A DNA stretch of 64,000 nt from Bilabrum cf. latius (lineage: Eukaryota), in NCBI GenBank assembly GCA_965178125.1, contig OZ237754.1, forward strand, positions 248,001 to 312,000. The letters run 5' to 3'. Position 1 is the first letter of the stretch, and each line of letters starts with the position of its first letter. The notes beneath the pieces are model-generated. The model did not search any database and was not told the origin of the DNA. It saw only the letters and a list, made by a program, of their open reading frames with translations. Below, piece after piece: positions 14,301 through 61,400 of the stretch. Position numbers and translations under genes: made by a program.

Positions 14301-17300
14301 GCACCGCTCACCGCTGCACTAGCGTTGAACTAGTCACTGATCGTTTGCTCTTGCCCATACTCCTCGTCGGGAGTCTCGACAATTGCACCTTGCTCGTTGA
14401 GCTCAATCCCCCCACAGCTGGCCTCCTCGGGGCACTCCTGGAACACGAGGCCATGCTCAGACCAGGGCACCCGCCAGTAGCCCTGCAGCGCAGTGACGTT
14501 CTCGTGAGGCAAGCCGGCGCAGAAGGCACCGGGTGGACACTCGGCGCACGTGATGAGCTTAGAGTCGTTCCAATGCGTCTGGAGGAATTCAAACGCCTCG
14601 CATGCTTCGGTGATCTGTGGAGATATCTCTGAGAATGGCCCCGTTCCGGCAGTGTTTTCAGCCGCAATCCTGAACCAGTACGGGACTCGAGCAAATCCAG
14701 GCAAAGTTCTGAAGTACTCGACAATGCCTCTAGTCTAATCAAGGACTTGGAAAGTTGTCTGCCGTACGGGCTGCGAGCCGAGCGAGTTGAACGTCACCCC
14801 GCCGTCGTCACTCGTCTCAATGGCGAAGCTGCTGGCCTCCTCAAAGAACTCTACCTCGAAGTCATCGTCCACGTTGCTGTCGTTGAGGACCTTGTCGGAG
14901 TACAACCATCGCAGGGTGATGGAGCTGTGGGCGCCAGGTGTGCGATACCCAGCGATGTTGAAAGGAAGGTTGAACGGCCTGCTGCCGCCACCTTTGTAGG
15001 CAAACCATCGGTTCCCCTCGCTCGGGTTAGTCTGTCCGGTGCGCGTCTCAATAATGACAGGTAGTCCAACGAGTGCTCTGGAGTCAACCGCAGCTGCATC
15101 CAATAGGGCCTGCGATTTGTCTGGGACTGTGCAGGACAGTGCGGTCCTGCCCTCGAACCCGATCGAGCCACAAGGCAGCCCGCCCACAGTGATATTCTTG
15201 ACGTCGTCACGCGAGTACCCGAAATTGGATCCAAAGATGATGATAGACTCTCCATCGGCGGCGGTCTGAGGCCTCACAGTTTCGATCTTCGGATCGCCAA
15301 CCACCTCAAACACCGAATTGGGCAGAGACAGCTGTCCGCCGGAGGACACCACCACCTGCGAACCCTGCCAAAGAGACGCGTTAACACCATAGCACCGAAT
15401 CTTCGAAGATGAGACCAGAACAGTCGAGTTACACGGGCTACCTCCTACAGATACAAAGTCAACGTCAGCCTGGCTGTGCCCGAAATGCTCCCCAGAGATG
15501 TTGAAGTCTAGGTTCGGCCCGCCAGTAAATGCATAGTCCGGCGAAACTGTGAGAACTTGCGGAGTGTAGTACGAGAACAACCGAGCTGGATCGTTCTCCA
15601 GACCACCACGGGTCGTCACTGCCACATTGACTTCCTTGCCAGCCCCTGGCGGCAGTACCGCGACAATCTCGTCATCCTCGGGGGAAAATGAAAAACTTGC
15701 AGGATATCCTGCAATGCTCACACCAAGAACATCGCCAAGAGCGTTTCCAAAGCTCTGGCCTGAAATCTAGATTGGGATACCCCCGGCATTCGGTCCTTGC
15801 CGTGGCTGCACGATCCGTACCTAGGGTTTGCCCAGCAAATCAATGCCCACACCGCCCACGGTCGTGCTTATCTAATTCCCAACCTGCACCTGCATCCGAA
15901 ACGAACCTGCCGATACGTTTGCGGGCGCGAGATGCTCCAAGACACACTCGATACTGCCCGTGCGTCCAGAGCGATCCACCGACTAAACGGCGCAAGGTAC
16001 CTGTGTCACGCCGCCCCCGGGTCGCGCGGCGGCAAGGGACACGGCTGAGATGTCGCTGTCGACCAGGCCAAAGTTTCTCCCTCGCACCGTCACGCTCTTG
16101 CCAGTCTCTCCGACGAAAAGATACTCCGGCACAACCGCCTCGACAGTGGGTCCTGCATATCTCCAGATCTGTCTGGGCGCGCTCTCGACCCCCGTTCGGA
16201 GACCCACCACCACAGGCTGGTTGGTACCGACACCAGGAGGGGTCAGCACGCTGATCCGGGTGCGGCTCAGCACCCTGAACTGAGGACAGGGCCTGCCTCC
16301 AATCAAGACGTGCTGCACATCTCCCGGCTACGTACCAAAGTTCGTTCCAGCGATGGTTGCGTTCGTGCCCCCCTCCACTGCACCAATATCTGGCTCTATG
16401 GAAGTCACAGAAGGGTTGCCGTACCCCTCAAAGACTGTCGAGAGAACCAGCTGGGACCCATCCGATCGCACCACTCGCACGTCCGAATTGGGCCAGTCCG
16501 CCACACCGTTCAGCTCGCATCGAATACGGGATGATGACTCTACTACTATATTCTCGCAAGGATATTCGCCGAGGGATACGAGAGTGAGCTGCGACACGTC
16601 ATTCGCGAGATCACTTCCTTCTAGACGAACCGACACGTTGCCTACCCCCGGTAGCATGTACGGCGGTTCCACCCTTGTGATTCGCTGTGCCGCGTACGAA
16701 AATAGCACAGGGCGCGAAACTAACCCATCCCGCCGATGCACTCGAACAGGCAGAGACGAGCCTATGCCAGGAGGCACGTCGACTTCAATTGACTGAGAGC
16801 TACGGTATGCCACCCTCGGTGCCTGCTGTGATCCGATAGTCACTCGCAGCACGTCTGCAGGAACAAATCCAAAACCATCGCCTGAGAGCACGAACGAATA
16901 ATTGCCTGTGATAGAATTCACTCCGCCTGGGGCATTACTGACGATAGCTTGCACCGCAGGATCAGGCGCAATCTGCAAAAGGGCCTCTTCCCTCGAAACC
17001 TGATTGCCGATCGCGACCCGGACACGGTCGCTGTCCCATGGCCCCTGAATACCCTCGCAAACCAAGCGCGACTGGTTAATGCGCCGCACGGTAGGGCAAC
17101 GGCGTTGTCCGATCTCTACGAACTCCACATCGTCGAGCTCGTGCCCAAGCTGCTAGCCATCAACCGTTAGATTGTAGCGGATCGTGCCAGAGAGCAACTG
17201 GAACGGAAATACGCTCTCAACCGTTGGGGGTAGGTAGCTGAACAGCTCGTTTGGGACCGATGAGCGACCTCCTCGTGAGCGAATACTCACTGACAGCGCT

Positions 17301-20300
17301 CTTCCCGCACCGCGAGGTGCACTACACTCGACGGTCATGGTTCCGTCTACCTCCCCTCGAGCAATGCTGGTGTTCCCACAACTGGCTCCGCCGATCGTAA
17401 CGTTCAAAATATCCGTTGCATACCTTCCACACTGCCTGCACGATATCATCTGGCGTTGGCTGTCAACCACACCAGACCTTCCTGGGGCGATCGACGAGAC
17501 GATCGGTTGGTCAAACACGGTCATGAGCGGAAGGGACGCCGCTTGCCCGCCGACCAGTCGCACCGTGACTAAACTGGTTAATACGGCGTTCGTTCGCAAC
17601 CCCCTGCATATCAGCTAAGTCCGCGACCTCCACGCGATCGAGGAGCAGTTTGCGTCACCAATCAGCACTTCGTCAATGCTGCCAAGACCAATCCCGAAGC
17701 CCGTGCCGTTGATGACAACATCTACTTTATCATCAGCATCCGCACCTCTAAAGATGTAGTCTGGCTCGATCGACGCGATCGTTGGGTGCTCGTACGACAG
17801 TAGTCGGTTGGGCGGGCTTGCGAGGCCGTATGCGTTCGTGATCTGCACGTCAAGTCCCGCCCCAATGCCAGGGGGAACCTCACAGGTCAGGGTACCGTCA
17901 GCAATGCGACTGGTATCAACCTCCACGCACGGGACCCCACCAACGGTGACCGTGCTCAGATTCGCAGGGCTACTCCCGAACGATGACCCAGATATTATGA
18001 TGAGTGCCTCCCCCACCTAGGGTATCCCGCGGGAGGGCTGCGCGGACAGGACGAGCGGAGACCCAATCACCTGAAATTTAGACTGAGTCGACACCGACTG
18101 GCCGCCGATGGACACCGACACGCGGCCAGAGGCCCAGCCGGACGCATCGAGGTCTCGGCACCGCAGCACTGTCGTTGAAATGACATCGAGCTACTCGCAC
18201 GGCATGCCGCCTATGATGACATCTGGAGGCAAGTCTGACGCATTTCCAGAGGCAAGCGAGCTCCCAGTCACGATGACATCGAGCCTCGTGCTGTTGTCCG
18301 GAGCGGTTAGAACAATTGGAGGCGTGATCATCTGAAGCGCAGGGGGTTCGTAGCTGAACACCGGGGCTTCCCTGGAGGGTTTCCCAACGCTGTTGACTAC
18401 CTCCACGTTCAGTCGGGAACCTACGCCGGCGGGCAGAATGCACCGAAGCAGCCTGTCGCTGACAACAACGACCGAGCCACACTGCCTGCCCCCCACAGTG
18501 ACAGCCTCCACGTCGTCGGGTCGGCCACCGAAACCCAGGCCTTGCACATCTAGAGTCACGCCGCCCCGGGTAGACGACCTCGATGGGCTCACCCCAGTAA
18601 CAATTGGGGCCCGCACAGTCTCAAGCAGCGTGAACGATGCCGTGGCCTGCCCTTCGAGCTCTAGCTCGACAGTAGAGCTGCTCCACGTCGCAGCAGAAAC
18701 ATTGTTGCACCCAATCACGCTCGAGTTGACAACGACGATTTCGCCGCACGGATTCCCGCCGATCGATACTTGCGGCGGGATCAGGGCGAGGCCTTCAGCC
18801 GGTGACTCCGGCGCGGCCAGATGCTGGCCATGCAGCACGAAGTCATAAGACACCGGGCCCGTGAGCACCCTGGTTGGGCTTAAACTGGTAATTGATGGGC
18901 TATCGTAGCTAAACCGTGCTTCCCCCATGCTTGCAGTCCCAAGTGAGTTGTTCAGCTGGAGCGTAAGGTCTCGTCCTGCGCCGGGCGGCACCGTGCAGAC
19001 TACTTGTCTAGAGGAGCGATGAACCACCTGCAAACAGGCCCTGTCTCCAACATGCAAACTAGCGATGTCATGTGGGAAGGACCCGAGGCTCTCCCCAGTG
19101 ATAGTTATGTTGAAGCCACCATCCGTTGGACCACCGGAAGGACCGACCGCCTGCAGGTTTGGCCTTGCATGGCCGATGAAGACCGACTCTGAAACAGCGG
19201 TCTGGTCTCCAACTGCCACAGTCACCTTGTCAGACAGCCAGCCAGCGGTGGCAGGGACGTCAAAGCACCGCAGGAGGGTGCTGTTCACGTGAGACACATT
19301 GCGGCACGTCCGCTCTCCAACCGTGACGACCGGTGGGCCATCGACGCCAGCTCTACCGAATTCGCTTCCGTAGATTGCAAAATCGTAGGTGACGGGCCCC
19401 ATCATTGCATAGGTCGGGTCTGTGCGGGTGATGAACGGCGCTCTGTAGCCTAGAATATCATCTGTCTCGACGACAAGGCCAAGCCTCGTTTCAAGGCGCA
19501 CTGAGGCTTTCTTGCCCACCCCCGGTGGAGAATAGCACCTAACCTCAATCGGCGTTCTCACCGACAAGCCCGTGCACTCTCTCTGGTTGATCGTCACGTT
19601 GACCACGTCATTTGGGGAATCACCAAAGCCAGAGCCGATGAGCTGTACTTGTTTTTCACCGATCGGGTTGTTCAGCCTATGGTACCTGCCCTGCGGATCT
19701 GTAGGAATCAATGCGGGCAGTGCCGTGGAAAGCGTGGGAATCCCGTAGACGGTAAGGAGATTTACACTATTGAACGACTGATCGCCGGCTTGCAGCCGCA
19801 CCGTCGATGAATCCCACTCCACCCCAGTCTGCTGCAAGCCTACGCAGGTGATCTTGCTCGAGCTTTGCACAGAGATGCTGTCGCACGCAATCCCTCCGAT
19901 CTCGACCAAACCAGGCACATCCAGTGAGCTGGCCAAGCTGCTGCCAGTCAGCGACACATCCAGCGTCTGCGTCCCCGCCATCAAGTAGCTGGGGTCTATT
20001 GAGCTCACAACTGGAGCATCGTACCGAAACAGGCCTTCACCTCCAATGCGCATCGAATACACCCGCACTTCAAGTCGCACTAGCTGACCAAATCCTGGCG
20101 GGACCGTGCAGTTCAGTTGAGTTCCATCGGGATTCCTTGTAAAATTTGTGCAAGGACGGCCTCCGATTGTAATTCCGAACACATCAGAGATATTTAGGCC
20201 AAAGTTGCTGCCAATGATCTGCAAAGTGTAGCCCCCGTGGGTCGGTCCCGATCGGGGGAATACCTCAACGATTTCTGGCCCGTCTTGCACGCGAAACGTC

Positions 20301-23300
20301 GGACTCGCCCTCCTCTGACCGGCTACGATGATCACAATATCTCCAGTCGTGTAGCCTGCAGACGCAGCGATTCCTTTGCACAGGAGGGTAGATGAATCAA
20401 TATAGACCACAGACGAACAGTTCTATCCGCCCATAGATACCAAAGATGGGTAAATTCCTGCTGCATCGCTTCCAAAGCCAGAGCCCGTGATCGTATAGTC
20501 AACCACCCCGCTAAGCGGAGCTTCTGGAGGCTGCATCTCGCGAGCAACGGGAGGTTCGAAGGAGAAAAACGAGTTCACAGAGCTCGAGCGACCTACTTTA
20601 TTTGTGACCTTTACCCTCAGGTTCTATCCAGCACCGTCCCCTAGCGTGCACCGAATGCTCTGCAAAACAGACCCGCTGCTGCCTGCGACGAGCTGAGGGC
20701 CGCGACATGCAAATGATCCGATCATGACAGACTATATATCAGACGAGGCTTGACCAAAGGCAGACCCTGATATAGTGACAATGGTTCCCGCGCCAGATGG
20801 ATCAGTGCTGGCAGAGTCCGAAGGATCCACACGTTGCACGATTGGTCGCTCAATGCGCTCTAGGGCCGCAGTCAGGGTAGAAGTGATACCGCCGACTGTG
20901 ATGGAAGCCGACGACCCAGTGCCCGCGGATAGCCTAGCGCTAGTGATATTGCACCGGATTTGTGAGCTAGAGATCCACGTGAGGTCGTTGCACAGCTGAC
21001 CTCCGACCCTGGCAGTCGCACCCGAGAACCTGGGTGCATTCGGAGCCAGTCCCGTCCCTTCGAACATGATTTGGTGTGTCCCGCCGTCATGAATCAAGGC
21101 GTAGGACGGATTCAGGCGAGTCAGGACTGGGGACACATACGAGACGGTCACGATGGAGGCATTTGATACCTAGTCTCCGGCCCGTACCTTAACAGCCAGG
21201 TCCTTGCCCACACTCGGGGCAGCTGTGCATCGGAGCTGGCTTCCACTCAGAGCTACTGTGCTTGCACAGGGGACGTCGCCAATGAGCACCTAGGGCGTGC
21301 CCTCCTGGCCTCCGAAGCTCTCTGCATCGACAAGCACGAAGTCGCCGCCCGACTGCCGCAGCAGAGTCTGGGTGCCAACGATATCCACATCTGAAATGGT
21401 GGGATACTTGTAGCCGATCATCAGAGATGACTGTGGCTCCACCTCATCGTACCCAGAAGCAAGTCGGAAGGACTTCAGCGACCCCACCCCGATGGGCATC
21501 ACGACAGATAGCGTCGTGTCGCTTTCGCGTATGATGACCTGGGAACTAAGCTGAGCCGTCCCCCAGAGCGCGACTGGGACTGCACCAGTCGTACCAAAGT
21601 CAGTGCCTCGCACTACGATGGTGGATGCAGCACCCTCCGCAGGCAGTCGGATGGCGGCGGAGGCACTTGCAAAGTAGGACGACCCATCGAAATCAATGCT
21701 GCTGATGATCGGCGCGCTGACGTTGAACACGGAAGCCGTGCCCCCTGCCTGCACCCAGCTGCTCGATGCCAGGCCCAGGTTGTGCCAGCTCTCGTCCGCA
21801 GAACTGTCCACGGTCTTCAGGAGCTATCTTGAGTCGAGGCTGCCGCCCGGGCCAGAGGTCGACGTCTGCCCGCCCACAGTCACCGACACGTGGCCCAGCG
21901 CGCCCACGCCTGCAGGGGTCGAGCACTCCAGCTTGCGGTCGCTATTTCGCACGATCGATGTACAGGCGCTCCCGCCCACGCTCACAGATATGTCGCTTGC
22001 GCCCACCGCCACGGCGCTGCTCCCGCTCCACTTGGTCGAACCGAAATTCAGGCCAAGCACGGTCAGCGTCTGCCCGCCCGCCGCATTCCACCCCTTTCCC
22101 TGGGACGGGCTGTGCCCCGAGGGCAGGCTCACGGCGTGCACCTCTGGTTTGGCGTAGGCGAACGGTGACCCAGACACCGTGGCTGAGCGACTTCCGATCG
22201 AGACAGACACCGCGAGACCAGTCCCGATGCCGTCCGGAACTACACAGTCGAGCTGAGTGTCGCTGACGACTGCAGTGCTGACGCACGGCCTGCCCCCAAT
22301 CTTGGCCGTGACCAGCGCGGAGTTGCTGGAGCTGCCAAAGTGCTTGCCATTGACCCTGACCTTGTACTGGAGGGCGTCATCCAGCCTGCCGGTGGTGGCG
22401 TTGGCCCACCGCCGCTGCAGCGCCTGGGAGGTAGACCAGGACGTGGCCTCCGGGGCCTTATAGTTGAACGAACCATCTACACTATAGGTTCGAGAGCCGA
22501 CCTTGAGCACGACCGCAACGCCAGTACCGACGCCAGCCGGGATGGTGCAGGTCAGGTCAGCTTGAATCGCTTCGCTCGAAGGACCCCGTATGTTGGTCCA
22601 GCTCGGCGACCCACAAGCTCTCCCCCCAATCGTCACCGACTTGCTTGACGACGTGTCAATTAAAATTCCCGACTGGACCTGCGCCTGGTGCCTGATTGTG
22701 ACCGTCTCCCCGCCTGCCGCGTTGAAGCTCTGGGCGCTCACAAGAGAAGTCTTGCCGTCGGTGCACACCGTCTAGGCGTTCAGGATAGCGTCATCAGCGG
22801 AGGCAGGCGTTGAAATCGAAGTGGATTTAGCTGCGTTTTGCAGCAGGACTCCGCCCTTTTGCGCCGTGCAGGAGGTCCCGCATCCGCAGGATGAGCCGCA
22901 CTTGTGCAGCCCGCTCCTGACGTCCACGCTGCTGTTGTCGTACACTACGACTGCATTGCCAGACCCGCTGCTCCGGGCAAACTCGACTACACCTCCTCCC
23001 CCGGCACCAGTCTACGGCTTGCTGGATGCTCCACCGGAAAACGTGCCGGATGGGTGGTCGGATTCGTCGATGCCCCCCCTTGCCTGCAGCACGGCCGCCT
23101 TGCTGACGATGATCTTGCTGCCGCCCTTGGCTTTGAGCCGGATCATGCCGCCGGCACCACCTCCGCCCAGGCCGGGCAACGATGTGCTGGCACCGTCCAT
23201 GTTGATGGTCGTCTTCCCCAGCACTAGATCTCCGCTCTCGGCCACCAGCTCGATGGCACCACCGCCCGCACCTCCGTGAGAAGGGGTGCACATGGCCTCC

Positions 23301-24076
23301 GTAAACAGGCCTTCGTGCACTTCATCGCAAATAAAGAAGAAGCATTCTCTCCTCCGGACGCCGCCAGAACCTGCGCCCCCGCCACCACCCCCAGCTAAGC
23401 TAGAACCAGGGGAAGTCCCAAATGCATTGCCAGCACTGGCGCTGAGCGCATTTCCACCCTTGCCGTAGTGCGAGCCTCCTGCACCTCCCGGCCAAAAACC
23501 TTGCAAATCTGAATATCGTTGGCTGTTCCACGGAGCAGCCTCCGATACTGATCCAGATGGGCCGCCGGCAGCGTTCGTATCGTCGATGTCTCTAGCTTTC
23601 ACGCCTTTCAAGGAGTCCTCATCTGAATACATACCTGCAATGCCCCCGTTGTATCCACCAATGCGACCAACATGGAACGATTTATAGGATTGGCCGTGGC
23701 ACAAAATCTTTTTGTCGTCGGCCGAAACCGTCACTGTGCGGCTGCCTGGAGAAGCGTCCAGAATTCCGCCATTGATCGTCGTCCCCTTCCTGGAAATCAG
23801 ACGCAGTGGCCGTGTGCCTGATAAGCTCACAGATACACTGCCATCAATAACGATGTAATCGAACGTGAACTGTGCCACTCCGCCGACAACAGTTCCATCA
23901 GCGCAAATGTTCGAGCTGCAAAGCTTCGGGGTACTTCCGGACGTAGAGACTGTCATTGAATCTGAGGAAGAGCAACAAAAGATAGATTTTTTATCCCTCG
24001 GCAAGCATGCAGACCTGACTGAAGGGCTGGCCACGACCAGTGCGGCAGCAAGACACACCAAACGTGAAGACGTCAT
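11366..24076 (-). CDS. Giant cell-surface receptor-like protein, copy A: signal peptide, Gly-rich domain, roughly 25-30 IPT/TIG repeats, FN3-like and Cys-rich domains, multi-pass TM C-terminus; ~4236 aa with TAG=Gln
   Basis: Twelve track ORFs from 24115 to 11366 share one frame. The gaps read through with 20 TAG and no TAA or TGA. Signal peptide MTSSRLVCLAAALVVASPSVRS. Repeated IPT motifs (P...GG..I.I.G.NFG...V.IGG..C....CT.P.G.G...V.V.GQ). CAECPPGAFC Cys-rich motif. TM motifs YWESVVALRK and VWPY...LLE. Ends at TAA 11366-11368. An alternative upstream ATG lies at 24115. Confidence 0.9.
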
Positions 24077-24210
24077 GGTATTGCTGCCGTACCTGATCCT
24101 GCTTTCCAACCCCATGTTCCAACTGAAACAGCAAAATATGCACTACGTTGGTAGATTTAAACCGATCTATCTCGCATGAGGCGAAGAAACGCCGACTGCA
24201 AGGGCGTAAA

Positions 24211-46862: not shown

Positions 46863-47009
46863 TCTAGTTGCAAGAGAAGTGCTGTTCGTTGAGTCTGGTT
46901 AATTCGGATGGTGGTGCGAGTCAACACGCTACCGCTAGGCGCCTCACCACCACAGAAAATCACCTTGCATATAACCCGTACGACCAGCCAATGCCTCGGC
47001 CAAGAAGCC

Positions 47010-50204: not shown

Positions 50205-51153
50205 ATGATGAGCCGCCGTACGAGTCGCTGCCAGTCGTCTTCGCCCCTGGCTTGGGCCAGACCATGGCCATGCCCCGGTGGGCGGTCTCCACCCCGAGGA
50301 ACAGGAACGCGTTTGCGACGAAAGCGCGCAGGACCGCTGCGGACCAGCCCCTGTACAGCATCGCGGGGCCCTCCTTCCGGACGAGACCCAAGAACCGTCG
50401 CAAAGGGCCCTCCCTCTCCCCCTCCCTGCCCCTCCCGCTTTGCTGCCCTTCCGCGCCGGCGGCGCCTTGCGTCTGCAGGAAGGATTTAGCCACGTCAAAG
50501 GGGTACACGATGGACCAGGCCGTGGATCCCGCCATGCCGCCGCAGACAAAGACCTCGAGGCTGGTGAGCTCGGACTGGGACTGCCGGCCCATGAGCGCTT
50601 GCGCTGCCCGACAGTAGGAGCGATATGACAGGAAGAAGAGCGTGTTGAATGGCAGGTCTCTCGCAAGCAGAGCCGACAGACCCACCGTTGGTGCACGCAG
50701 GCCGTACATGCCCCATACTTCACGGAGCGACTTGCGCAGCGCCGGAAGGCCTTTGAGATTGCGCTCGAACTACATTCTGCACTTAATGAGCTCTGGAAAG
50801 CATATTGATGTGGCAGAAAAGAATCCAGATGCTGTTCCAGTCAGCGCGTGCTGCCATAAGGTTAACTTGTCCTCGTCACCAGACCCGTCCTCGGTAAGCA
50901 GCCGGCAAAACACGCCATTTGCACTAAACAGAACCGTGTTCTCCACCATAGCTGAAGCTAACGCCGGCATTGCCCCTCGCCATAGTGCAAAAAGGCCTTC
51001 TGTTTTCAGCATGGACCTGGATGCTGCCACGAGAGAGTGCCCATAACGAGCGCCCTGAGTTGCAAGCCTCAGCTTCAACGTATCCAAGGGAAGGCCTCCG
51101 TACACGAGACAGACTGAGCCAAAGGCCCCTGCAATCGAATCCCTGACATCCAT
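50203..51153 (-). CDS. Mitochondrial carrier (SLC25), ornithine/carnitine carrier-like; 316 aa
   Basis: Three signature motifs: PLDTLKLRL, PELIKCRM*, PFDVAKSFLQ. Also EGLFALWRG, ENTVLF, RDLPF, LYRG, RAFVANA. Single TAG at 50770. Ends at TGA 50203-50205. Confidence 0.92.
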
Positions 51154-51371
51154 GTTTAATCCCAACGCATCCTTGGTCCAGATGCTCGAATGAAAGCTTT
51201 TCAGCGGCACTGGTGTATCGAAGTTCCGCAACTCTGCGCGGCGACATCGGCCTCAACGAGCAAATCGATAGCATTCACGCTCGTGGCACGGTCCCTGGAG
51301 ACAGGCACCTCTTGCTGCACGAGAGCTGGGTTTACGTGCTGTTTGATTTGCAAGCCGTCAGCTAAAATCCG

Positions 51372-54018
51372 ATGGGATGCGGTGCATCACAGCTTCAAGT
51401 CACTGTGAGTTCAGACGTCGGTTGCTCTCGATGCGTTCGACCCAGCTACCGCTCATGCTGTGTATCGCTGCTTGTAAATTATCCAACAAAACAAACCAGC
51501 TTACTGCTTTCTAATGTGTATGCTGGACCGCCTCCATTCGCAGCCCGCTGACTCTGGGGATCCGTCTCAGTCTGCCGCCTCTGGAGCAGGTACTGATGAG
51601 TCTAAGGCTGCGCAGTCCACCATTATTGCTGGCGGCAAGGTAGCTGGTGGAGCTACGTTGCCAGACATGGAGTAGCGAATCGCAGCTGGTTTGGAGGCGC
51701 AGCGCGTTATGACTGGCGGGCGCGAGCGTCGCCAGGAAATTCGTGCAGAATCGTATGCCAATGCCCGAAGGCAGGCCAGGTCCAGCGGGTTTGGCGGGGG
51801 CCTCGGGCACCGCTTTCCTCAAATCAAGAAGGCAGAAGATGAGCGAATCCAGATTCTGGAGGCGTTGGCTCACATCTTCCTGTTCAGCAAGCTCAACGCA
51901 GAGGAGAAGCAGATGCTGGTGGACGCCATGGAACGAGAGAAATTCCCCGCAGGGACCGATATCGTGAAGCAAGGCGATCAAGGCGATATGTTCTACATCA
52001 TCAAGTCCGGCCGGGCGAACGTCCTGGTGGACGGCAAGGAAGTGAACTAGCTGGACAAGGGCGACCATTTTGGAGAGCTCGCGCTGCTGTACGCCACGCC
52101 ACGCAATGCCACCATCCGAGCGGCGTTTCCCACGCAATGCTTCTCGCTGCCTCGTGCGGTGTACCGCACCATCGTGGTCGCCTCTTCCTCCAAGACCGCT
52201 CAGGAGAACCGGCACTTCCTATCAAGGGTGAAGCTGCTGCGCACCGCGCTCAACAAGCAGCAGGTCAGCACGCTCGCTGGCGCACTGCAGCAGTTCGAAT
52301 TCAACCGGGGGGACACGATCGTCAAACAGGGCGATCCAGGCGCGGTGTTTTATATCATCCGCAAAGGAAGCGTGGAGGTGCAGGTGCGATCGAAAGACGC
52401 AGCGGCAGGCGGTGGAGACGAAGAGAAGCAGCAGAAGAAGAAGCAATCGCTGGTGCCCCCGGCAATCGAAGGAGAGGACGAGGAGCTGGAAGCCAAGTGC
52501 GGGCCCATCGCACAGGCCCTGGAGCTGTCGGCCGGTGCGTTCTTCGGCGAGCAGTCGCTTTTGAACGACAAGCCCAGGGCCGCCACGGTGAGAGCCAAGG
52601 AACACGTCACGGTGCTGGCGCTGCTCCGCGACGAATTCGAGGAGATCTTGGGGCCCTTGCAGTCGCTCATGCGCAAGAACCACTCGAAGAGGGAGCTGCT
52701 GGGCAGACAGTTCCAGGCGGATGCTCAGGTGCACCGTGAGGCAAGCGACCTGGGAGACGAGTCGCCTCGCGCGTCTGGGGCGGACACGACATCTGCCGCT
52801 GGTACGTCAGCGAGAAACGGGGCGGCAGGTGCTGGCGGTGCGACCGGTGCCCGTGGGGAACTTGACGACATCGGCACGGCGGTGGAAGCAGACGAAGAGG
52901 AAGAAGACGATGAGGCACCCAAGGGCATGACACCGATGCAAGCTGCCCAAGCGGCGGCTCGCGGCGGCAGGGTGGGTGGGATGATGAAGGCCAAGGCCTC
53001 CTTCCGGTCGGAGAGGCCAGACATCTCGCTAGAGTCGTTGGAGAAGCTAGCGGTGCTCGGCGAGGGAGCCTTCGGGAGCGTGAAGCTGGTCCGAGTGCGG
53101 GGCACCAGCGAGGTGTACGCTCTCAAGCAGATGAGCAAAGCAAGGATCGTGAAGACAAACCAGAAGCGCAACGTGCTGAACGAAAAGGCCATCATGATGC
53201 GGCTCAAGCACCCGTTTATCCTGCGCCTGATCAAGACCTTCAAGGACAGAGACTGCCTCTACCTACTCATGGAGTTCCTGCAAGGCGGCGACTTCTTCGG
53301 GCTGCTTTCGAGGCAGCCGCACGGCAATCTGCGGCGGCGGCAGGCAAACTACTACGCTGGCATCGTCACGACTGTACTGGAGCACGTGCACAGCCGATCC
53401 ATTGTCTACAGAGATCTCAAGCCCGAGAACCTGGTGCTTGATAGGAGCGGGGTAATGAAGGTAGTTGACTTTGGATTTGCCAAGTATCTTCCTCCCGGGC
53501 AACGCACCACCACTCTGTGCGGAACGCCTGAGTACTTGGCTCCTGAGCTGGTGCAGGGCACCGGGCATGGACAAGGGGTGGACTATTGGGCCCTGGGGAT
53601 CCTCATCTACGAGATGCTGGTCTCGTACAGCCCGTTTGCAGACCACGAGAACAACGAGCAGCTCAAGATCTACAAGAACATCCTGAGAAAGAACCCCAAG
53701 TTCCCCAGCCGAGGCACGCACATCGACAAGGATTCAAGGGACCTCATCGAGCGGCTCCTGAACAAGAACCCCTCCAAGCGGCTGGGTTCGCTCAGGGGAG
53801 GCGCACGTGACATCATGAATCACCCCTGGTTCAGCACGTTTTCCTTCGACAAGCTGATGCAAGGTCAGATGAAGCCGCCGTTCAAGCCAGACGTGAAGGG
53901 GAATACGGACGTGAGCATGTTTGCCATGGACGATGACGAAGAGGACGAGGACCGCGTGCGGCACGATCGGATTGAGCCGTACAAGGATGACGGAACAGGT
54001 TGGGACGAAGCCTTCTGA
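51372..54018 (+). CDS. Cyclic-nucleotide-dependent protein kinase (PKG-like: 2 CNB domains plus AGC kinase), N-terminal MGCxxS acylation motif; join(51372..51404,51544..54018), 835 aa
   Basis: Exon 1 encodes MGCGASQLQVT. CNB cassettes FGELALLYATPRNAT and FGEQSLLNDKPRAAT. Kinase motifs GEGAFG, YALK, YRDLKPEN, DFG, TLCGTPEYLAPE and an AGC tail. TAGs at 51673 and 52048. Ends at TGA 54016-54018. Confidence 0.92.
51405..51543 (+). other. Spliceosomal intron (GT-AG, 139 nt) of the kinase gene
   Basis: GTGAGT donor, CTAAT branch-like site at 51511, TTCGCAG acceptor (same ending as intron 290-456). Phase 0 and in frame. Confidence 0.8.
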
Positions 54019-54354: not shown

Positions 54355-57300
54355 TTACAATCCAAATCTGGCCAAAATGGTCCTCCTTACCGGCTTCATG
54401 TGCCCGTTGTAGCATCCATTGGCTTCCGTCCAAGCGTGCAAACCGCCATTGTCAATGGCTAGGCCAGCAGGCCACCCGCCCTCCGGCAACCCTTTCAGCA
54501 TGCAAGCCTATCTGCACTCCGAGAGAACGTCACTAGCCTAGGAAGCGGCTGCTGACTCGGAAGGCATCACCACCAACACCACAATCTGTGTCGAACCGTC
54601 AACCAAAGATGAAGTACCGTCGGTGAGCTGAGCTGCATGCCGTTCGCCCACGGTCTCCATGCAGCTGCGCCACTTGCCAGCTGGTACCAACGCGACAACG
54701 CAGTCAGCTATGGAACTCAATTCACTGCAGGCCGCCTGTACGTCTGCTGGAGACAAAACAAGCTATGATCTGGACGTCACGGTGGATGCAGCACCAGTAC
54801 TAGCACCAGCTTCAGCAGCACCACCAGCTCCAATCAAAGGAATTACAGCCCCAACTCTTTCCAGTACACGTAACCGCCACTCCCACACCGGTCTGGCCCT
54901 GCCCGAGCAACCGTCAGGCGGTATAGCGCCCGCAAGGTACTTTGCGGCAAACTCCCGAGTTGTTTTATCATCTTTGCGAGGGATCGCATCTGCTGGCACA
55001 ACGAGAGCTGCTTCGTCATGCACTACCACTCCAGTCAGAGGGTTGACTTGCTTCAGTTCCCACGCAGCCACATCACCCGTGGCCATCCAGCCGTTGCCGA
55101 GAAAGCATGCCTCGTCTCCTGGCTTCGGGCGCAGGTAGCCTCCACCTTCAGCCAGCAGCTGGGGCGTCTTCACCACAACCTCTCCGACCAGAAGCACAGA
55201 CCCACGTTGCGGATCCTTCGCTTCCAAAGCAACCCTTGCTGCACCGCTTGTACTTGAAAGACATGCTTCGTCTGCGCATGGCGTCAGTGCAACTTCCGCG
55301 CCCGCTGCGTCGGGCCGATGCACGGCAGGTGGGCCCGACGTCCACTCTGCAGCTGCTGACTCTGGGTCCCATGCCTCCAGCGACGCGGGCTATCCGTCTG
55401 CAAGCAGGGGCCTGAGTCGGAGTTGCGCACCGCTGTATACCTTGCCGTCTTCGCAGATGGCTCCTGCCTCCGTGGAGCCGTACGACTCGTGCAGCGCGGT
55501 GGGAGCCAACAGTCTCTGGGCAAAGGCTTGCACCTCGTGCGTGGTTGGCGCCCCGCCTGTCACCACAACCCGGAGTCTGCCCCCGGTCAGCTAGCGCACA
55601 CGTTGCAAGGCCGATTCGCTCGCAGTGTCACGGTCTCTCTCCGAGGCGGCCGTCCCGGTGAGGCTGTTCATCTCTCGAGAGAATACTGCCCGCAAGCCGC
55701 TCCAGATCCGAGGCGGGCCAGCAAAGGCAGTGGGTTTCAGGGCCTGAACCTGCTTCATCAAGCCGAGCACGCCGTTGTCGGCTAGCCCGTCGGTTTTAAC
55801 TAAGCCCTGCTTTTTGGACTTTTCGTGCTGAAGCCAGTTGCTGTGGTCGTAGTGACAGAGACCTACCCTCCCACCATTGCACACGAATTCCCACAGTCGG
55901 AAACGATCGGAAGAATGCGACAACGGGATGAAAGATGCAGTTACCAACGGGCAGGCCGTGCTGTTGGCAATAGATGCAAACTGGCGCGAAGTTACCTTGA
56001 CTCCTTTGGCCCTCCCACTGCTCCCGCTCGTGTACAGCAGGGTGAAGATGGAATCGGGACCACCTCGTGGTAGCGCGTCTGGATCATCAAGACCAGTCGT
56101 CAGACAGCGTGCACGCGCCTCATATGTGCTTTCAGCGGACGCATCTCCCTGTTCGTTGGTTGCTTGTTCGTCCAGCAGCAGCTCGCGCATTCGCCTTGCG
56201 CCTGTCCCTTGGCGTGCAGGCGAAACAGCGGCGTCTAAATGCCGGCGAACAGCAGCATCGAACCATTCGACGGAGCATCCAGCCTTTCTCAGTGCATCTG
56301 TGTGCTCTCCTGCAGGTGGCTGGTCACCTGCTGCGCCTGCACCTGAGCCCCTGATCACGAATAGGGTGGTGACCTTGCTAATCCGCCCTGCGATGCGGCC
56401 GGCAGCGAATCGATCGACTGCTGTGCCGGTCTCGCAGACGTGGATCCGCGCGTCGCAGTGCTCCATCATGTCCGCGGTCATGGCATCGCTGAAGGAAGCA
56501 TGCACGCCAACGGGTGCCATCCCGGCCAGGCAGGCGCCGAAATCACTCACAACGAACTCGACGCGGTTCGCCGCTCGGATGGCCACCGTTGCTATGCTTG
56601 TTTCTCTCGCCGTTCCAGCGCCGGAGGCAGCAGCTGGTGGCTCCACCTATCGATCATCGACATCGGCAGGCCCACGGTCTAGGGCCTCCTTGAACGCCAA
56701 TGCGGCAGCTCTAGCCAGCGCCCCGACTTGAAAATGAGTGAGCCAGTGAAAGTGTCCGACCTGCCACATGCCTCCGACAGCAGACACCTCGTTGCTCTTT
56801 GCTGCGCTGGGCAAGACTGGCAAACTTGCGCCTGCATCGGCGACTGCGCATGGTGTTTCATTGCGTGACTGGGCGGCAGCTGACGAAGCATCGCCTTCTC
56901 CTGAATCGGAATGGGAATCACGACCGCCACCGGCTTGTATAGGCGCTCCTAGAATAGACGGGTGTGGGCACAGGATAGCAGGTACGTTGTCCGAGTGGGC
57001 CAATGCTTGTACCGCAGATGCAGCTGCCCCCGGGCCACTCGCAGCTGGTCCTGGTGCCGGTGTCGGACCTGAGTGCTAGGCGGTCAGCGATTTTGCTGCC
57101 GCAGACACCGCGTCTGCCGGGTCCATGCTGCTTGCTTCGGGAACGGATGCGAGCAATTCAGCAGCATTCATCCTCCACTGGTCAGCGTCTTGCAGCAGGA
57201 GCCCAGCCACCCCATTTGTGAGGGATTGGGGAGAGGTCGGGGGGACCGGCAGCGTCATCGCAACCGCCTCCTCGCCGATCGGTATCCCTATGCACGGCCG

Positions 57301-58347
57301 GTTCTCGTACGTTAGCAGTGCACGATGGAGGATTCCAGCGGGCGAACGATACTATCCAGGCGCGGGGTGAACGGATATATGAGGAAACAACGAGGCGTCC
57401 TCTTGGACCCAGAATCCGCAAGATAATGGCTCGATGCGAAGGAGCAGGTGCAGACCCAGGCAGCCCATGTGCCTGACGGGCGCGTGCTCAGAAGATAGCA
57501 TAGCTGTGACACACGAGGATAGACTCCCAGGGCCGTGCAGAACCACTCGATGCGCCCTATCGCAGTGCAAGCGAGCATTCGCGGCAGGATCCGGCGACGC
57601 GCTCGGAATAAAATCACCGGCATCCAGGCATCGCCAGCGCAGAGTCCCAACACCGCGATCCCACGACTATATTGGTACACCAGTCAACTCGCAAATTGAA
57701 ACATTGATACTTCGACCGGTTTCAACGTCCTCGATACCATCTCCCTTGAAGTCTGAGCGATCTCCGCCACGCCTGAGAAGCAGGTACTGCAGCTGCCAAT
57801 GAAATGGAGCCCCCACCTCTGCGCATTTAGCTTTGTATAACTCCAAAGATGAATTGTAGTCGTCTTGGGCATCACTCAGTTCCTTCGGCCGCGCGAGGCT
57901 TGCTGCGTTCTCCTCCTTGACCCGTGCAATAATGCCCGGGATCACTGCTCGACACTCCGAAAGTATGGAGTCAACCTATCGGAGGCTACCAATTAATTCA
58001 TTTGCGTATTCCATCGCTGCAATTGCGGTCGCAGCCTCTGACAAAGCGATCGTACTAGCAATAGATCGCGCGGCAACAGCTTTGGCACGGCCCATGTATT
58101 CATCCAATGCGGCTGAAACTTTTTCATTTCCGATGCCAGAGCTATCTTTGAGCTTACTAGACTAGGACGCCAGTGATACTTCATACTGCTGGTCAGCTGT
58201 CCTGAATCGAGCAGCCGAGGCCTACAGCAACTCGACGGTGCGATTCAGATCGTCAACGGATCCTACAGAAACGTCGGAAGGTGCATAGCGGAAGGTGCGC
58301 CAGCTAAGAGCCTCGGCCATTCTGTCGTCCGCTCCAGAATTTGCCAT
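54355..58347 (-). CDS. AMP-dependent synthetase (long-chain acyl-CoA ligase / CAR adenylation-domain-like) with helical N-terminal extension; ~1330 aa with TAG=Gln
   Basis: LYTSGSSGRAKGV P-loop, FIPLSH, GGRLRVVVTGGAP, ESYGSTEAG, GWMATGDV, and C-terminal WTEANG...KPVRRTILARF directly followed by TAA 54355-54357. One frame with 12 TAGs. Confidence 0.82.
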
Positions 58348-58466
58348 TTTTTGAGGTCTGTTTTGAATGTGGCGAGTTCTGAGCCCAAGGCTAGTGCAGC
58401 TCCGGATCCTCCCGATGGTGGTCCCCATTCTCGTGGGAGAGGCTTCGCATTACACAGATTGAATGT

Positions 58467-61400
58467 TCAAGCAACAATACTTATACCTACGACTAGAACA
58501 GGCTCCAGCTGCGCCTTGCTCGCGCTCGACTGGCGTTGAAGTCCTGCCAGAGTGCTTCCGGCTACCGGCGCACCGTGCCCATCCTAGATGGCACCCCTTG
58601 CTTCGCCAGCGGGTGCCTGGGATCTTCTCACCGCGAAACGCACGGTAATGAGCAGGAGCGAGCAAACGATGTTACCACAGCCGACTTTCACCCTAATCCG
58701 CACCTCCGGGGTGCCGTCTCTCGCGATGGATCGAGTCATTCCGCACCACGGTATCTAGGAGCGATGGCACCCTATTACTGGCAGGGCCGCCGCACCCCCT
58801 TCTGATTGCTAGGGCGCCAGCGGTCTACCGTTACGCCCGTCTTCTTTGTCTTGCTTTCGACCGCGGGTAACATACTTTCCTACTTGCATATTGTCTCGAG
58901 CGACCCGCAGCCCGCCCGATGCTCCCCGCAGGAACACGGAAGGGGGCGGGAAGCTCCCCGGCTGGCCAAAGGGGCCCCGAGTCCCCCTTCGAGAGACTCC
59001 ACCGGCGGAAAGCAAGCAAGGTGCCAGGGTAGACATCCCACGGGCTGCACTTGGCTTCAGAATCCCCCCTGCATACCCCCCATGCGCCGTGCCCCCGGCA
59101 TCCTCAGTGCATCCTGGATCGCCTGCCGCAGAGTTGCTGCTGTCGTCTTCGCCGGCGCCGGCATCCATGCCAATGTACCCGCCTTGCAGGACAGGGCTAG
59201 GGGGCTCCAAGTTGACGAGGTTGCCTAGCGTGCCGTTGCATTGCTTGTCCATGGTCGTCGAGTCTTCCCAGGAGGACACAAACACGTCCTGCAGGTCCTG
59301 GAACCGAGCCTTGACCTGGGCAAACTCGCCCAAAGCAGCATCAGGAGCCTCCTTGCGACCGCCAACAGTGGACACTTCGGTCTCTCGTTGTCTGGGTGAG
59401 AGTAGATCGCCCGCTGATTGCGCCGTCTCCAGAACAAAGTCGCCATCTGTCTCGATGCTTCGAGCCAGATGCTCTGGCGAGTCGTCCACGGACGGACCCT
59501 GCCCTCTAGCCCACGCAGGACGCAGCCTGCTCTTCCCCTATCCTGGAGGCTGTTGTTGCTGAAACTATTGTAGCCCGTCCATGGTGCTCTCTTGCAACTT
59601 GCTGGGCCCATAATACGAAGCCTGCGCTACCCTATTTACTGGCTTGGCTTGACCCCTTCCGTCGTACTTTCGCTGCTCATCCATGGCTGTACCTACCTGG
59701 GTTACGCCCGATCGTAACCCGTTTCTGTGCTTATCTTTGCCCAATGGACTTTCAAGCAAGATTTCAGATTCCTGATCATCATCACCTATCAGCGCTTCGA
59801 GCAGACCGCTCTGGTCGCCCACTAGGAGACCGCCTGGGTCATCGAGGCCTCTGTCGATGGGGTATGCAGGTAGTTTCGGGATCGACGAAAGCGTGCTAGA
59901 CACGTCATTGCTAGATTGCTCAGGTTCTTGTTGCCTCTTGGAGTGCAGCAGTCGCAGCCGCGATGCCACGTCTGTCGCCAGTCCGGGGTCCAGACCTGTT
60001 TCAAGCATCATGACCAATGACAAGCCCGCTGTCCCAGGGTCGTAGCCAGCCCTCAGCTGCTTGCCCCCCAAGTCAGCACCGTGCGAAAAGCGCCGCCGCC
60101 GAGTGCTGCTGGTACCAGCACCTCGGGACTTGGGACGATGCTCGGACGGCGCGGCCACGGATTTGGCATCGTCTTGCCTGCCCGGCTGGCCGTCCATGAC
60201 ACTATGCGCGCCCCCCGCTTCCATTAGCCTGGAATCTAGACGCGAGTGGATGGAAGGCAGCGACCTGGGCTGTCCCACTAGCAGGCTGCTCCCGTGTGAT
60301 GCCTCAGGAAACGTCTCCACGCCGGTGTGCAGCTCGGCAAGTTCGCGGCGCCGCGCGGTTGGAATCGCGGGCGGAGCCACGGTCTCTCCTCGAATGCTGT
60401 CCACCGGCTCGCCCACATCCAGCGACAAAGAGTTGCGAGGCGCCGTCTCGCCATCGTGTCCTGCAGCGGCGCTGCGGCCAGGTGCGAGTAGGAACTCACC
60501 GCCATACTGACGCGCCGGCGGTGCTGGGGGAGCCTTGTATACAGGAGTACCGGTATGCTTGCCGGCGAAGTGGCGCCCGTCATCTTCAGTTGGATCGTCG
60601 TGGTGAGCCAGCCGAACTGGCGCGCCGGTTTTCCCGTGGTTATGGGCGTGTTCCTTGGCCTGCTCCTGGACTGCTTTTAGCAGCGCGTCCTTGCGTACTC
60701 CAATGTATATCTGGTTCATGCTTGACGCCGCAGGTTCGTATTTCAATCTGATCAGTCCACTGAATAGGTCTGGCGAGGTCCCGCTAGTAATGGCACGGCC
60801 AGCCCCACCTGCATGGCCGCCGCCCAGCTGGCCAGCAGCGGCATGCCCGTGATGGCTGTCAAGTAGCGGAACCAGAGCAATCTCCGCTCCCACCCCGACT
60901 GCGTCGAGATACACGTCGTTCACTGCAATGGTCCGCGCGACTAGCCTTTCGATCTGCCTTGCCAGCTTGTCCGCTCCTCGGTGCTTGGATCTGCCGCAGC
61001 ACTCACTCTGACTGCAGCACCACCTGCCAGAGCACGGCGCGCACGGCCCGCATAGCCACAGGAAGGCCCGGGCAACGCAACTGAGTGGTGCACAGAGCTG
61101 CCTGCAGCAGACACAGCCCCCGCACTATCCACGAGCACTACGTCCATCAGCTCGTTGCGACCGTGGGCTGCCGCTGCGCTTCCTGCGTTGCATTTGGACA
61201 GCGCTGCGGTGGCCACTAACCGGAGGCATGTATGCAGATCTGCCACGCCCCCTCATTTCAATCGAGATCGTTTCATTCGCAGGGCTAGTTTGTCGCGCTC
61301 TGAGGCTGGCTCCGCCCCGCTTCACGCTCGGGGATGATCCGTGTCGAGTCCGACGGAACCCACCCAGCCCACCGGTTGTCATCCCTGGAATCATGCCGGC

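What the first reader, a model, noticed from the sequence alone, without database searches (positions are those of the whole stretch)
15872..59567. The amino acid encoded by UAG is most likely glutamine
Seen: (1) carrier signature PELIKCRM* at 50770 matches PFDVAKSFLQ in repeat 3 and the canonical Px[DE]xx[KR]x[KR]xQ. (2) The IPT motif VxVGxQ has TAG in one paralogue opposite Q in the other: AGD*VS (21170) vs VGDQSS; VGN*IS (15872) vs VGGQEN; VGK*ES (39022) vs IGNQVS. (3) RT*LIC (17615) and NF*ISC (38398) match SDTQLDC and ETQISC. (4) PheA linker ALE*PLRV (48954) matches proteobacterial ALEQPL. (5) GLQ*FQQQQ (59565). (6) RRAI*S (2243) vs RRAIQ. I saw no TAG in the TM helices, which argues against Leu. 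A few sites align with R or E, as expected at variable polar positions.
Basis: partly seen in the sequence, partly recalled or inferred. Interest (0 to 1): 0.85.

Follow-up and report, generated by a model that had tools for sequence, protein, structure and literature searches.

The report
TAG codon means glutamine here
This stretch of a GC-rich microbial eukaryote's nuclear DNA uses the usual stop codon TAG as an ordinary codon, and comparison with close relatives shows it stands for glutamine, a rare but already known kind of genetic-code change.

Summary
The window carries eukaryotic nuclear genes (PKG, mitochondrial carrier, SPX, SAP). They are open only if TAG is read: 14 ORFs, 20,102 codons, 112 in-frame TAG, no in-frame TAA or TGA. 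Of 13 complete ORFs, 11 end in TGA and 2 in TAA. All 9 reader coordinates are in-frame TAGs with the quoted contexts.

Close relatives give the identity. In orthologue fragments 92-96% identical to the 4,296-aa IPT protein, 5 of 5 covered TAG sites show Gln in at least one relative; one site shows His in a second relative. An 87%-identical PheA fragment has Gln at TAG135. A 73%-identical metagenomic orthologue uses in-frame TAG itself, including at a column that is Gln in 82 of 82 homologues.

A profile score over 11 sites gives Gln +14.9 nats, next Glu -6.3. Paralogue and IPT-repeat comparisons are not diagnostic.

The code matches NCBI table 15. The decoding tRNA and eRF1 could not be examined, because no genome is held. 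I file it as a new member of a known kind.

The parts
800..6913 (+). g01, SAP-domain protein with a 465-bp tandem array; 6 in-frame TAG, including 2243-2245 (RRAI*S)
   Evidence: ORF open only with TAG read. SAP domain. Tandem repeat 2561-4779, 4.8 copies. Motif count Q7 E4 K2 H1 TAG1.
7418..11104 (-). g02, conserved protein of no Pfam family; 8 in-frame TAG. TAG247 lies at 10364-10366 and TAG730 at 8915-8917.
   Evidence: Orthologues and an 85-sequence family alignment. The TAG247 column reads Q 48 of 71. TAG730 is Q in L001, P0005 and P0006.
11366..24256 (-). g03, 4,296-aa IPT/TIG-repeat membrane protein; 22 in-frame TAG; ends in TAA
   Evidence: TIG domain hit E 7e-145.
15767..15985 (-). 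Four TAG codons of g03: residue 2830 at 15767-15769, 2812 at 15821-15823, 2795 at 15872-15874 and 2758 at 15983-15985
   Evidence: The 95%-identical fragments P0164 and P0197 read Q at 2795, 2812 and 2830. At 2758, P0197 reads Q and P0164 reads H. Coordinates.
18191..18193 (-). TAG2022 of g03
   Evidence: The 92%-identical fragment P0165 reads Q. Coordinates.
24379..28758 (+). g04, lineage-specific ORF; 18 in-frame TAG, the highest density at 12.3 per 1000 codons
   Evidence: No Pfam family. Contigs about 90% identical cover it in three runs.
28835..31480 (-). g05, SPX domain fused to an AstE/AspA-type deacylase; 7 in-frame TAG
31513..44838 (+). g06, 4,441-aa paralogue of g03; 21 in-frame TAG, including 38398-38400 and 39022-39024
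   Evidence: 50% identical to g03 overall, with four segments at 89-93% identity.
45297..46862 (-). g07, ammonium transporter family protein; 1 TAG, in a loop insertion
48552..49982 (+). g09, PheA-type chorismate mutase / prephenate dehydratase / ACT; 3 TAG, with TAG135 at 48954-48956
   Evidence: P0015 and P0189 read Q at TAG135. The TAG438 column reads E 49, D 24, Q 13 of 141.
50203..51231 (-). g10, mitochondrial carrier; TAG154 at 50770-50772, in the repeat-2 signature
51514..54018 (+). g11, cGMP-dependent protein kinase with several cNMP domains; 2 TAG
   Evidence: The best solved relatives are chains of 846-863 residues titled cGMP-dependent protein kinase (5ezr, 4rz7, 9p74, 5dyk). That these are Plasmodium PKGs is my recall; the call gives no organism. 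TAG179 sits on a variable column.
54355..58428 (-). g12, AMP-binding enzyme; 12 TAG; ends in TAA
58467..63065 (-). g13, lineage-specific ORF; 8 TAG, including 59565-59567 (GLQ*FQQQQ)

Best explanation
In this organism's nuclear genes, TAG (UAG) is an ordinary sense codon for glutamine. It is a minor synonym of CAG and CAA, making up 112 of 829 such codons. TGA and TAA remain the terminators. That equals NCBI translation table 15.

Shown: TAG is in frame in conserved genes, and it exchanges with CAG/CAA in close relatives.

Inferred, not shown: UAG is read by a tRNA-Gln with anticodon CUA, one base away from tRNA-Gln(CUG). That anticodon pairs with UAG but not with UAA. The release factor eRF1 is inferred to have lost efficient recognition of UAG.
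For: (1) The ORFs are open only with TAG read. There are 14 ORFs with 20,102 codons, 112 TAG and no in-frame TAA or TGA. Of the 13 complete ORFs, 11 end in TGA and 2 in TAA.

(2) Near-identical orthologue fragments of g03 cover 5 TAG sites. P0165 (92% identical) reads Q at 2022. P0164 (95%) reads Q at 2795, 2812 and 2830 and H at 2758. P0197 (95%) reads Q at all four of these sites. So 5 of 5 sites show Q in at least one relative.

(3) PheA TAG135 is Q in P0015 and P0189, both 87% identical.

(4) L001 is 73% identical over 593 aligned residues and has 4 in-frame TAGs of its own. Opposite them the window has CAA, CAG, CGA and ACT. The window's TAG730 lies opposite CAG in L001. The family columns under L001's four TAGs read Q 82/82, Q 74/81, Q 33/68 and E 37/71.

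(5) Profile-column log-odds over 11 sites give Q +14.9 and next E -6.3. The 7 window-only sites give Q +6.8 and next R -1.1. L001's 4 sites give Q +8.1. In controls, 11 random sites of a known residue return that residue in 62-100% of 500 draws. Q wins falsely in at most 6% of draws.

(6) The share of Gln opposite TAG falls as divergence rises: 5/5 sites at 92-96% identity, 1/1 at 87%, 1/3 at 73%. At 51-57% identity it is 2 of 6 g02 sites plus 0 of 2 sites in P0166. This is the pattern expected of a synonymous codon that sits preferentially at variable sites.

(7) The relatives' ORF fragments stop exactly at the window's TAG2643 and TAG3174, and at the window's CAG2053. The relatives therefore carry in-frame standard-code stops in the same gene.

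(8) The mechanism has a precedent. tRNA-Gln(CUA) reads UAG but not UAA, and eRF1 changes accompany such codes (PMC5304391, passages read).
Against: The paralogue comparison g03 versus g06 (35 TAG sites opposite a residue) gives R 6, S 4, Q 4, L 3, T 3, G 3. An empirical likelihood puts R slightly ahead of Q, at -0.7 versus -3.7 nats.

The IPT-repeat columns (26 sites) put T at +15.5 ahead of Q at +2.6. A control weakens this result: real Gln residues in the same alignment also return T in 407 of 500 draws and Q in only 77.

The PheA TAG438 column is E 49, D 24, Q 13 of 141. Solved homologues show D, E, I and E there.

In L001 the window's TAG967 lies opposite Ile and TAG1090 opposite Asn.

No tRNA gene lies in the window and no genome is held. 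The decoding machinery is therefore unseen. No peptide data exist, and no run on record as RNA was available.
Confidence: 0.87

Rival explanations
1. TAG has two meanings: glutamine inside genes and stop at some gene ends, decided by context, as in ambiguous-code protists.
For: Whether TAG ever terminates cannot be tested here. ORFs were extended through every TAG by construction. Lineage-specific ORFs g04, g13 and g14 have TAGs near their 3' ends, followed by unconserved tails. Ambiguous codes exist, for example in Amoebophrya sp. Kv (PMC12005148, passages read).
Against: TAGs are spread evenly along the ORFs, with decile counts 14, 7, 21, 5, 15, 10, 10, 11, 8, 11. In every gene with a conserved C-terminal part (g02, g05, g09, g10, g11), conserved sequence follows the last TAG. 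All 13 complete ORFs reach a TGA or TAA at a plausible gene end.
Confidence: 0.07
2. The code is standard, and U-to-C RNA editing converts UAG to CAG in the mRNA. Glutamine is still inserted, but without any reassignment.
For: It would give the same TAG-versus-CAG pattern between relatives. No run on record as RNA could be laid to exclude it.
Against: Contigs of run X6, labelled only 'RNA?' (a guess), match the window with 0 other letters across pieces that include 8 TAG codons: 17194-17733, 28945-29842 and 29819-31365. If X6 is RNA, these TAGs are unedited. No nuclear editing system of this scale and specificity is known to me (recalled).
Confidence: 0.03
3. TAG encodes another polar residue (Glu, Arg, Thr, Lys or His), or a mixture of residues.
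For: Arg is the commonest residue opposite TAG between the paralogues, at 6 of 35 sites. Thr tops the IPT-repeat score. Glu/Asp dominate the PheA TAG438 column. His lies opposite TAG2758 in P0164.
Against: Nine window TAG sites are covered by orthologues at least 70% identical. No Arg, Glu, Thr or Lys appears at any of them. Gln appears at 7, and the others are H/Q, I and N. Five independent replacements to Gln in proteins only about 5% diverged are not credible. The IPT control shows that real E, H, K, Q and R residues all score as T. Leu, Tyr, Trp and Ser are recovered correctly in that control (387, 500, 500 and 421 of 500 draws), yet none of them is what TAG returns.
Confidence: 0.03
4. 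The TAGs are nonsense mutations in pseudogenes, or assembly errors.
For: None beyond the bare presence of stop codons.
Against: The coding frames hold 112 TAG but 0 TAA or TGA in 20,102 codons. The domains are intact. The same stretch is held by runs of several studies. Relatives also carry in-frame TAG.
Confidence: 0.005

Closest known systems
Nuclear code with UAG = Gln and UAA/UGA = stop (NCBI table 15). Reported for the fornicate Iotanema spirale, the ciliate Protocruzia tuzeti and the phyllopharyngean ciliates Hartmannula sinica and Trochilia petrani (PMC5304391, abstract and passages; PMC11687900, passages).
   Same: Only TAG is reassigned, and it goes to glutamine. TAA is still a terminator.
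   Different: In those organisms UAA is the main terminator. It is 'primary' in I. spirale and accounts for 93.5-100% of aligned C-termini in the two ciliates. Here TGA ends 11 of 13 ORFs and TAA ends 2. The DNA is about 59% G+C. The window has large ORFs without introns and no ciliate-like features. Its lineage was not established.
UAR = Gln code (NCBI table 6). Found in many ciliates, ulvophycean green algae, hexamitin diplomonads, Streblomastix and Amoeboaphelidium (listed in PMC11687900).
   Same: A stop codon is reassigned to glutamine, presumably through a mutated tRNA-Gln anticodon.
   Different: TAA is not a sense codon here. There are 0 in-frame TAA in 20,102 codons, two ORFs end in TAA, and treating TAA as sense opens nothing further.
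Ambiguous use of all three stop codons in Amoebophrya sp. ex Karlodinium veneficum (PMC12005148, passages read; PMC6394959, listing only)
   Same: A protist whose in-frame UAG is thought to encode Gln.
   Different: That genome is described as much more AT-rich than other Amoebophrya genomes, and it also has in-frame UAA and UGA. This window is 59% G+C and has neither in frame.
UAG = Leu (uncultured rhizarian, some ciliates), UAG = Ser (Scotinosphaera) and UAG = Glu with UAA = Lys (an oligohymenophorean ciliate); PMC11687900 passages
   Same: UAG is reassigned separately from UAA.
   Different: The residue differs. Here orthologues and profile columns give Gln. Leu and Ser are recovered correctly by the IPT control and are not what TAG returns.
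Code 15 in crAss-like and other phages (PMC9523058, abstract in the listing)
   Same: TAG = Gln.
   Different: Those are phage genomes. This window carries eukaryotic nuclear genes.

Membership tests
UAG=Gln, UAA/UGA=stop nuclear code (NCBI table 15 type) | In-frame UAG inside conserved protein-coding genes that otherwise lack in-frame stops | tested here: met
   112 TAG, 0 TAA and 0 TGA in frame in 14 ORFs of 20,102 codons. Pfam domains span the TAGs.
UAG=Gln, UAA/UGA=stop nuclear code (NCBI table 15 type) | UAG positions correspond to glutamine in orthologues and conserved columns | tested here: met
   5 of 5 sites at 92-96% identity and 1 of 1 at 87%. Profile score Q +14.9, next E -6.3 over 11 sites, with controls. 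A relative's TAG falls on a column that is Q in 82 of 82 sequences.
UAG=Gln, UAA/UGA=stop nuclear code (NCBI table 15 type) | UAA retained as a terminator and not used as a sense codon | tested here: met
   2 of 13 complete ORFs end in TAA. No TAA is in frame. Reading g12's TAA through would run 206 codons into the convergent gene g11. The evidence is limited to one 64-kb window.
UAG=Gln, UAA/UGA=stop nuclear code (NCBI table 15 type) | UAG no longer used as a terminator | tested here: inconclusive
   ORFs were read through every TAG by construction. TAGs are evenly spread along the ORFs, and conserved sequence follows the last TAG in 5 conserved genes. Gene ends were not mapped.
UAG=Gln, UAA/UGA=stop nuclear code (NCBI table 15 type) | A cognate tRNA-Gln with anticodon CUA | not testable with these tools
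   No tRNA in the window (ARAGORN; Rfam). No whole genome is held.
UAG=Gln, UAA/UGA=stop nuclear code (NCBI table 15 type) | eRF1 N-domain changes that weaken UAG recognition | not testable with these tools
   No eRF1 gene among the 14 ORFs. No genome is held.
UAR=Gln code (NCBI table 6 type) | UAA also used as a glutamine codon | tested here: not met
   0 in-frame TAA in 20,102 codons. Treating TAA as sense leaves the count of 24 ORFs of 300 aa or more unchanged and adds 195 bases to their summed length.
Ambiguous three-stop codes (Condylostoma / Amoebophrya sp. Kv type) | In-frame UGA and UAA as well as UAG | tested here: not met
   No TGA or TAA is in frame in ORFs of up to 4,441 codons.
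UAG=Leu / Ser / Glu / Tyr variants | UAG aligned with that residue in orthologues | tested here: not met
   None of L, S, E or Y appears opposite TAG in orthologues at least 70% identical, across 9 sites. In the IPT control, L, S, Y and W are recovered in 387, 421, 500 and 500 of 500 draws, and none of them is what TAG returns.

The most novel reading that the evidence does not exclude
This may be an independent, so far undescribed origin of the UAG-to-glutamine code in a GC-rich, intron-poor, non-ciliate eukaryote lineage. The code appears to be shared by a small clade: relatives about 91% identical in DNA occur in three studies, and one relative is 73% identical in protein. It would be unusual in that TGA rather than TAA is the main terminator. 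If so, it would be a test case for how UAG can be uncoupled from UAA under GC pressure.
Probability: 0.4. Interest if true: 0.65.

Novelty: new member of a known kind. Interest (0 to 1): 0.5.

Why it matters
Practically, any annotation of this genome or its relatives with the standard code will break most long genes. The relatives' database proteins are already fragments that end at TAG positions. These genomes should be translated with table 15.

Biologically, nuclear codes in which UAG changes meaning while UAA does not are few (PMC5304391; PMC11687900). Another case would add a data point on how such codes arise and which release-factor and tRNA changes they need. This one is GC-rich, terminates mainly at TGA, and has relatives that share the code.

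Tried and rejected
- Whole genome: none is held. No genome-wide tRNA, eRF1 or Codetta analysis was possible.
- ARAGORN and Rfam found no RNA gene in the window.
- The g03/g06 paralogue likelihood and the IPT-repeat column score do not single out Gln. The control shows the repeat test cannot separate Q, E, H, K, R and T, so I dropped it as positive evidence.
- The carrier's repeat 2 alone found no solved structure. Reading TAG as Q did not bring repeat 2 into the PDB alignments either.
- PKG TAG179 falls on a variable column and is uninformative.
- The search with g12 (12 TAG) returned 1 protein at 33% identity and was not used.
- Read laying: none of the 40 differences shown lies in a TAG codon, and 2,032 rows were not shown. 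The planned count of TAG-to-CAG differences could not be made.
- No RNA holder is listed for the stretch.
- L069 (47% identical) has a TAG inside the matched span, but the frame changes there (intron-like), so it was not counted.
The lineage was therefore not pursued that way.
- The listing of cluster members gave no organism names.
- Literature searches found no paper describing this code in a GC-rich non-ciliate. The organism is unknown to me, so this does not show it is unpublished. Supplementary tables of the code papers could not be read.
- Rows dropped from the counts: 4 of 80 loci shorter than 300 aa; TAG sites with under half column occupancy (g02 39, 100, 593; PheA 308); 17 of 43 IPT TAGs outside well-filled repeat match columns.

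Full report
WHAT THE WINDOW IS

Under the standard code the window breaks into short ORFs. With TAG read as a residue it resolves into 14 long, tightly packed ORFs on both strands. Removing TAG as a stop raises the longest ORF from 3,936 to 13,326 bases. Removing TAA instead changes nothing.

The products are eukaryotic nuclear proteins:
- a SAP-domain protein;
- an SPX domain fused to an AstE/AspA-type deacylase;
- an ammonium transporter;
- a PheA-type chorismate mutase / prephenate dehydratase / ACT protein;
- a mitochondrial carrier;
- a cGMP-dependent protein kinase with several cNMP-binding domains;
- an AMP-binding enzyme;
- two paralogous IPT/TIG-repeat membrane proteins of 4,296 and 4,441 residues.

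The kinase's best solved relatives are chains titled cGMP-dependent protein kinase. That they are Plasmodium PKGs is my recall. G+C is 55-63% along the window. I did not establish the lineage.

CHECKING THE OBSERVATION

The 14 ORFs hold 20,102 codons with 112 in-frame TAG (5.6 per 1000), 513 CAG and 204 CAA. They hold no in-frame TAA or TGA. Of the 13 complete ORFs, 11 end in TGA and 2 in TAA. TAGs are spread evenly along the ORFs.

All nine coordinates in the finding are in-frame TAGs with the quoted contexts. The three paralogue pairs 'TAG opposite Q' are as stated.

Four TAGs (g03 residues 30 and 38; g06 residues 11 and 65) lie upstream of the first ATG followed by a signal-peptide-like stretch. 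The mechanical ORF starts there are TTG codons. These four may therefore lie in 5' leaders (inference).

The remark that TAG avoids membrane helices is true, at 0 of 112. It carries no weight, because only 1.0% of all residues have such flanks.

WHICH AMINO ACID: TESTS THAT DID NOT DECIDE

The two IPT paralogues are 50% identical. Opposite 35 TAGs the other copy has R 6, S 4, Q 4, L 3, T 3, G 3 and others. An empirical likelihood built from the same alignment puts Arg slightly ahead of Gln.

Four TAG-TAG pairs exist. Two of them lie in segments 93% identical between the copies, so they are not independent.

I built a profile from 54 IPT repeats. It puts 26 TAGs on variable polar columns, and a column log-odds score ranks Thr (+15.5) above Gln (+2.6). 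The control matters here. Real Gln residues in the same alignment also come out as Thr in 407 of 500 draws, and so do real Glu, His, Lys and Arg. Leu, Ser, Tyr, Trp, Gly, Pro and others are recovered correctly. This test therefore argues against Leu, Ser, Tyr and Trp and is silent among the polar residues.

The PheA ACT-domain TAG438 sits on a column of E 49, D 24, Q 13 of 141 (solved homologues). The PKG TAG179 column is variable.

WHICH AMINO ACID: TESTS THAT DECIDED

(a) Near-identical relatives. A search for shorter proteins with the 4,296-aa protein found fragments 92-96% identical to it, and a cluster look-up added one more.
- P0165 reads Q at TAG2022.
- P0164 reads Q at TAG2795, 2812 and 2830, and H at TAG2758.
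- P0197 reads Q at all four of these sites.

So 5 of 5 covered sites show Gln. These fragments begin just after the window's TAG positions, or end exactly at them (2643, 3174). One ends at a window CAG (2053). The relatives' gene is therefore also interrupted by standard-code stops.

(b) PheA. Fragments 87% identical (P0015, P0189) read ALEQPLRV at TAG135.

(c) The protein g02, which has no Pfam family. A metagenome scan gave 80 loci. L001 is 73% identical over 593 residues, and its homologous frame contains four TAGs. At DNA level:
- window CAA opposite L001 TAG;
- window TAG opposite L001 CAG;
- window CAG opposite L001 TAG;
- window TAG967 opposite ATA, and TAG1090 opposite AAC;
- L001 TAGs opposite window CGA and ACT.

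I aligned 85 family sequences (4 of the 80 loci, shorter than 300 aa, were dropped). L001's TAGs lie on columns reading Q 82/82, Q 74/81, Q 33/68 and E 37/71. The window's TAG247 lies on a column reading Q 48/71. TAG730 is Q in the three closest sequences, though the wider family has G there.

(d) A profile-column score over the 11 well-occupied sites of g02, L001 and PheA gives Gln +14.9 nats and next Glu -6.3. The window's own 7 sites give Gln +6.8 and next Arg -1.1. With 11 random sites of a known residue, the method returns that residue in 62-100% of 500 draws. It returns Gln wrongly in at most 6% of draws.

The share of Gln opposite TAG falls with divergence: 5/5, 1/1 and 1/3 sites, then 2 of 8 sites at 51-57% identity. 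That is what a minor synonymous codon enriched at variable sites should show. It also explains why the 50%-identical paralogues were uninformative.

OTHER STOPS AND RELATIVES

TAA is not a sense codon here. None is in frame, and two ORFs end in TAA. Reading g12's TAA through would run 206 codons into the convergent neighbour.

Runs from several studies hold the stretch. Three runs from three studies hold contigs about 91% identical, without gaps across g03. One example is a 2,941-letter contig with 263 differences and 0 gaps. The per-site table was cut at 40 of 2,072 rows, and none of the 40 lies in a TAG codon. The planned count of TAG-to-CAG differences was therefore not possible.

Contigs of a run guessed to be RNA match the window exactly across 8 TAG codons. 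This is a weak point against RNA editing.

MECHANISM

Shown: TAG is in frame and exchanges with CAG/CAA.

Inferred from precedent: a tRNA-Gln with anticodon CUA, one mutation away from tRNA-Gln(CUG), reads UAG but not UAA, and eRF1 has a weakened grip on UAG (PMC5304391, passages read). Neither gene is in the window, and no genome is held.

COMPARISON AND NOVELTY

The code equals NCBI table 15. It has been reported for Iotanema spirale, Protocruzia tuzeti and two phyllopharyngean ciliates (PMC5304391, abstract and passages; PMC11687900, passages).

It differs from those cases in stop usage and composition. They rely mainly on UAA, whereas here TGA ends 11 of 13 ORFs. The DNA is about 59% G+C.

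It is not the UAR=Gln code, and it is not the ambiguous code of Amoebophrya sp. Kv. That genome is described as AT-rich and has all three stops in frame (PMC12005148, passages).

Three literature searches turned up no description of such a code in a GC-rich non-ciliate.

VERDICT

It is a new member of a known kind. Interest is moderate, at 0.5.

Noticed in passing
window 11366-24256 (-) and 31513-44838 (+): Two giant paralogous IPT/TIG-repeat membrane proteins (4,296 and 4,441 aa, about 27 repeats each) lie in inverted orientation 7 kb apart. They are 50% identical overall. Four segments are 89-93% identical: g03 residues 587-856, 3352-3531, 3809-3937 and 3938-4167. This suggests gene conversion between the copies.
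   Followed up: partly
window 2561-4779: A 465-bp tandem array of 4.8 copies, 98% matching, inside the SAP-domain ORF. It encodes near-identical 155-aa units that carry the LPTP.RRAIQ.RR motif.
   Followed up: partly
window 28835-31480 (-): An N-terminal SPX domain is fused, through a long low-complexity linker, to an AstE/AspA-type succinylglutamate desuccinylase/aspartoacylase catalytic domain. I did not look for this domain combination elsewhere.
   Followed up: no
window 30334-30376: A short acidic-repeat coding stretch attracts contigs from many organisms. Summed depth is 292-935 in that bin, against roughly 7-34 in the two neighbouring bins, with many loose ends. Depth there is meaningless.
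   Followed up: no
L001 1-2004 (metagenome contig): A relative 73% identical in protein, at 55% G+C, also uses in-frame TAG: 4 in 607 codons of the g02 orthologue. That ORF ends in a standard stop (TAA or TGA). The code is therefore shared beyond the window's own organism.
   Followed up: yes
L069 336-1518 (metagenome contig): A 47%-identical homologue of g02 changes frame between two matched blocks (1022 to 1177). This looks like an intron, whereas the window's copy is uninterrupted.
   Followed up: partly
window 47010-48050 (-): An ORF of 346 aa without any TAG and without a Pfam family. It carries four copies of a SAFE[RK]D...RELF-like motif. An overlapping opposite-strand ORF (46908-47744) is probably spurious.
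   Followed up: no
window 48552-49982 (+): The PheA-type protein has an insertion of about 55 residues (around residues 280-335, containing TAG308) between the dehydratase core and the ACT domain. The insertion is absent from all 150 homologues aligned. The 87%-identical relative's fragments end inside it.
   Followed up: partly
window 58467-63065 (-) and 62983-63999 (+): The mechanical ORFs g13 and g14 overlap head to head by about 80 bases. The true starts are probably internal ATGs. Both are lineage-specific, low-complexity proteins.
   Followed up: no
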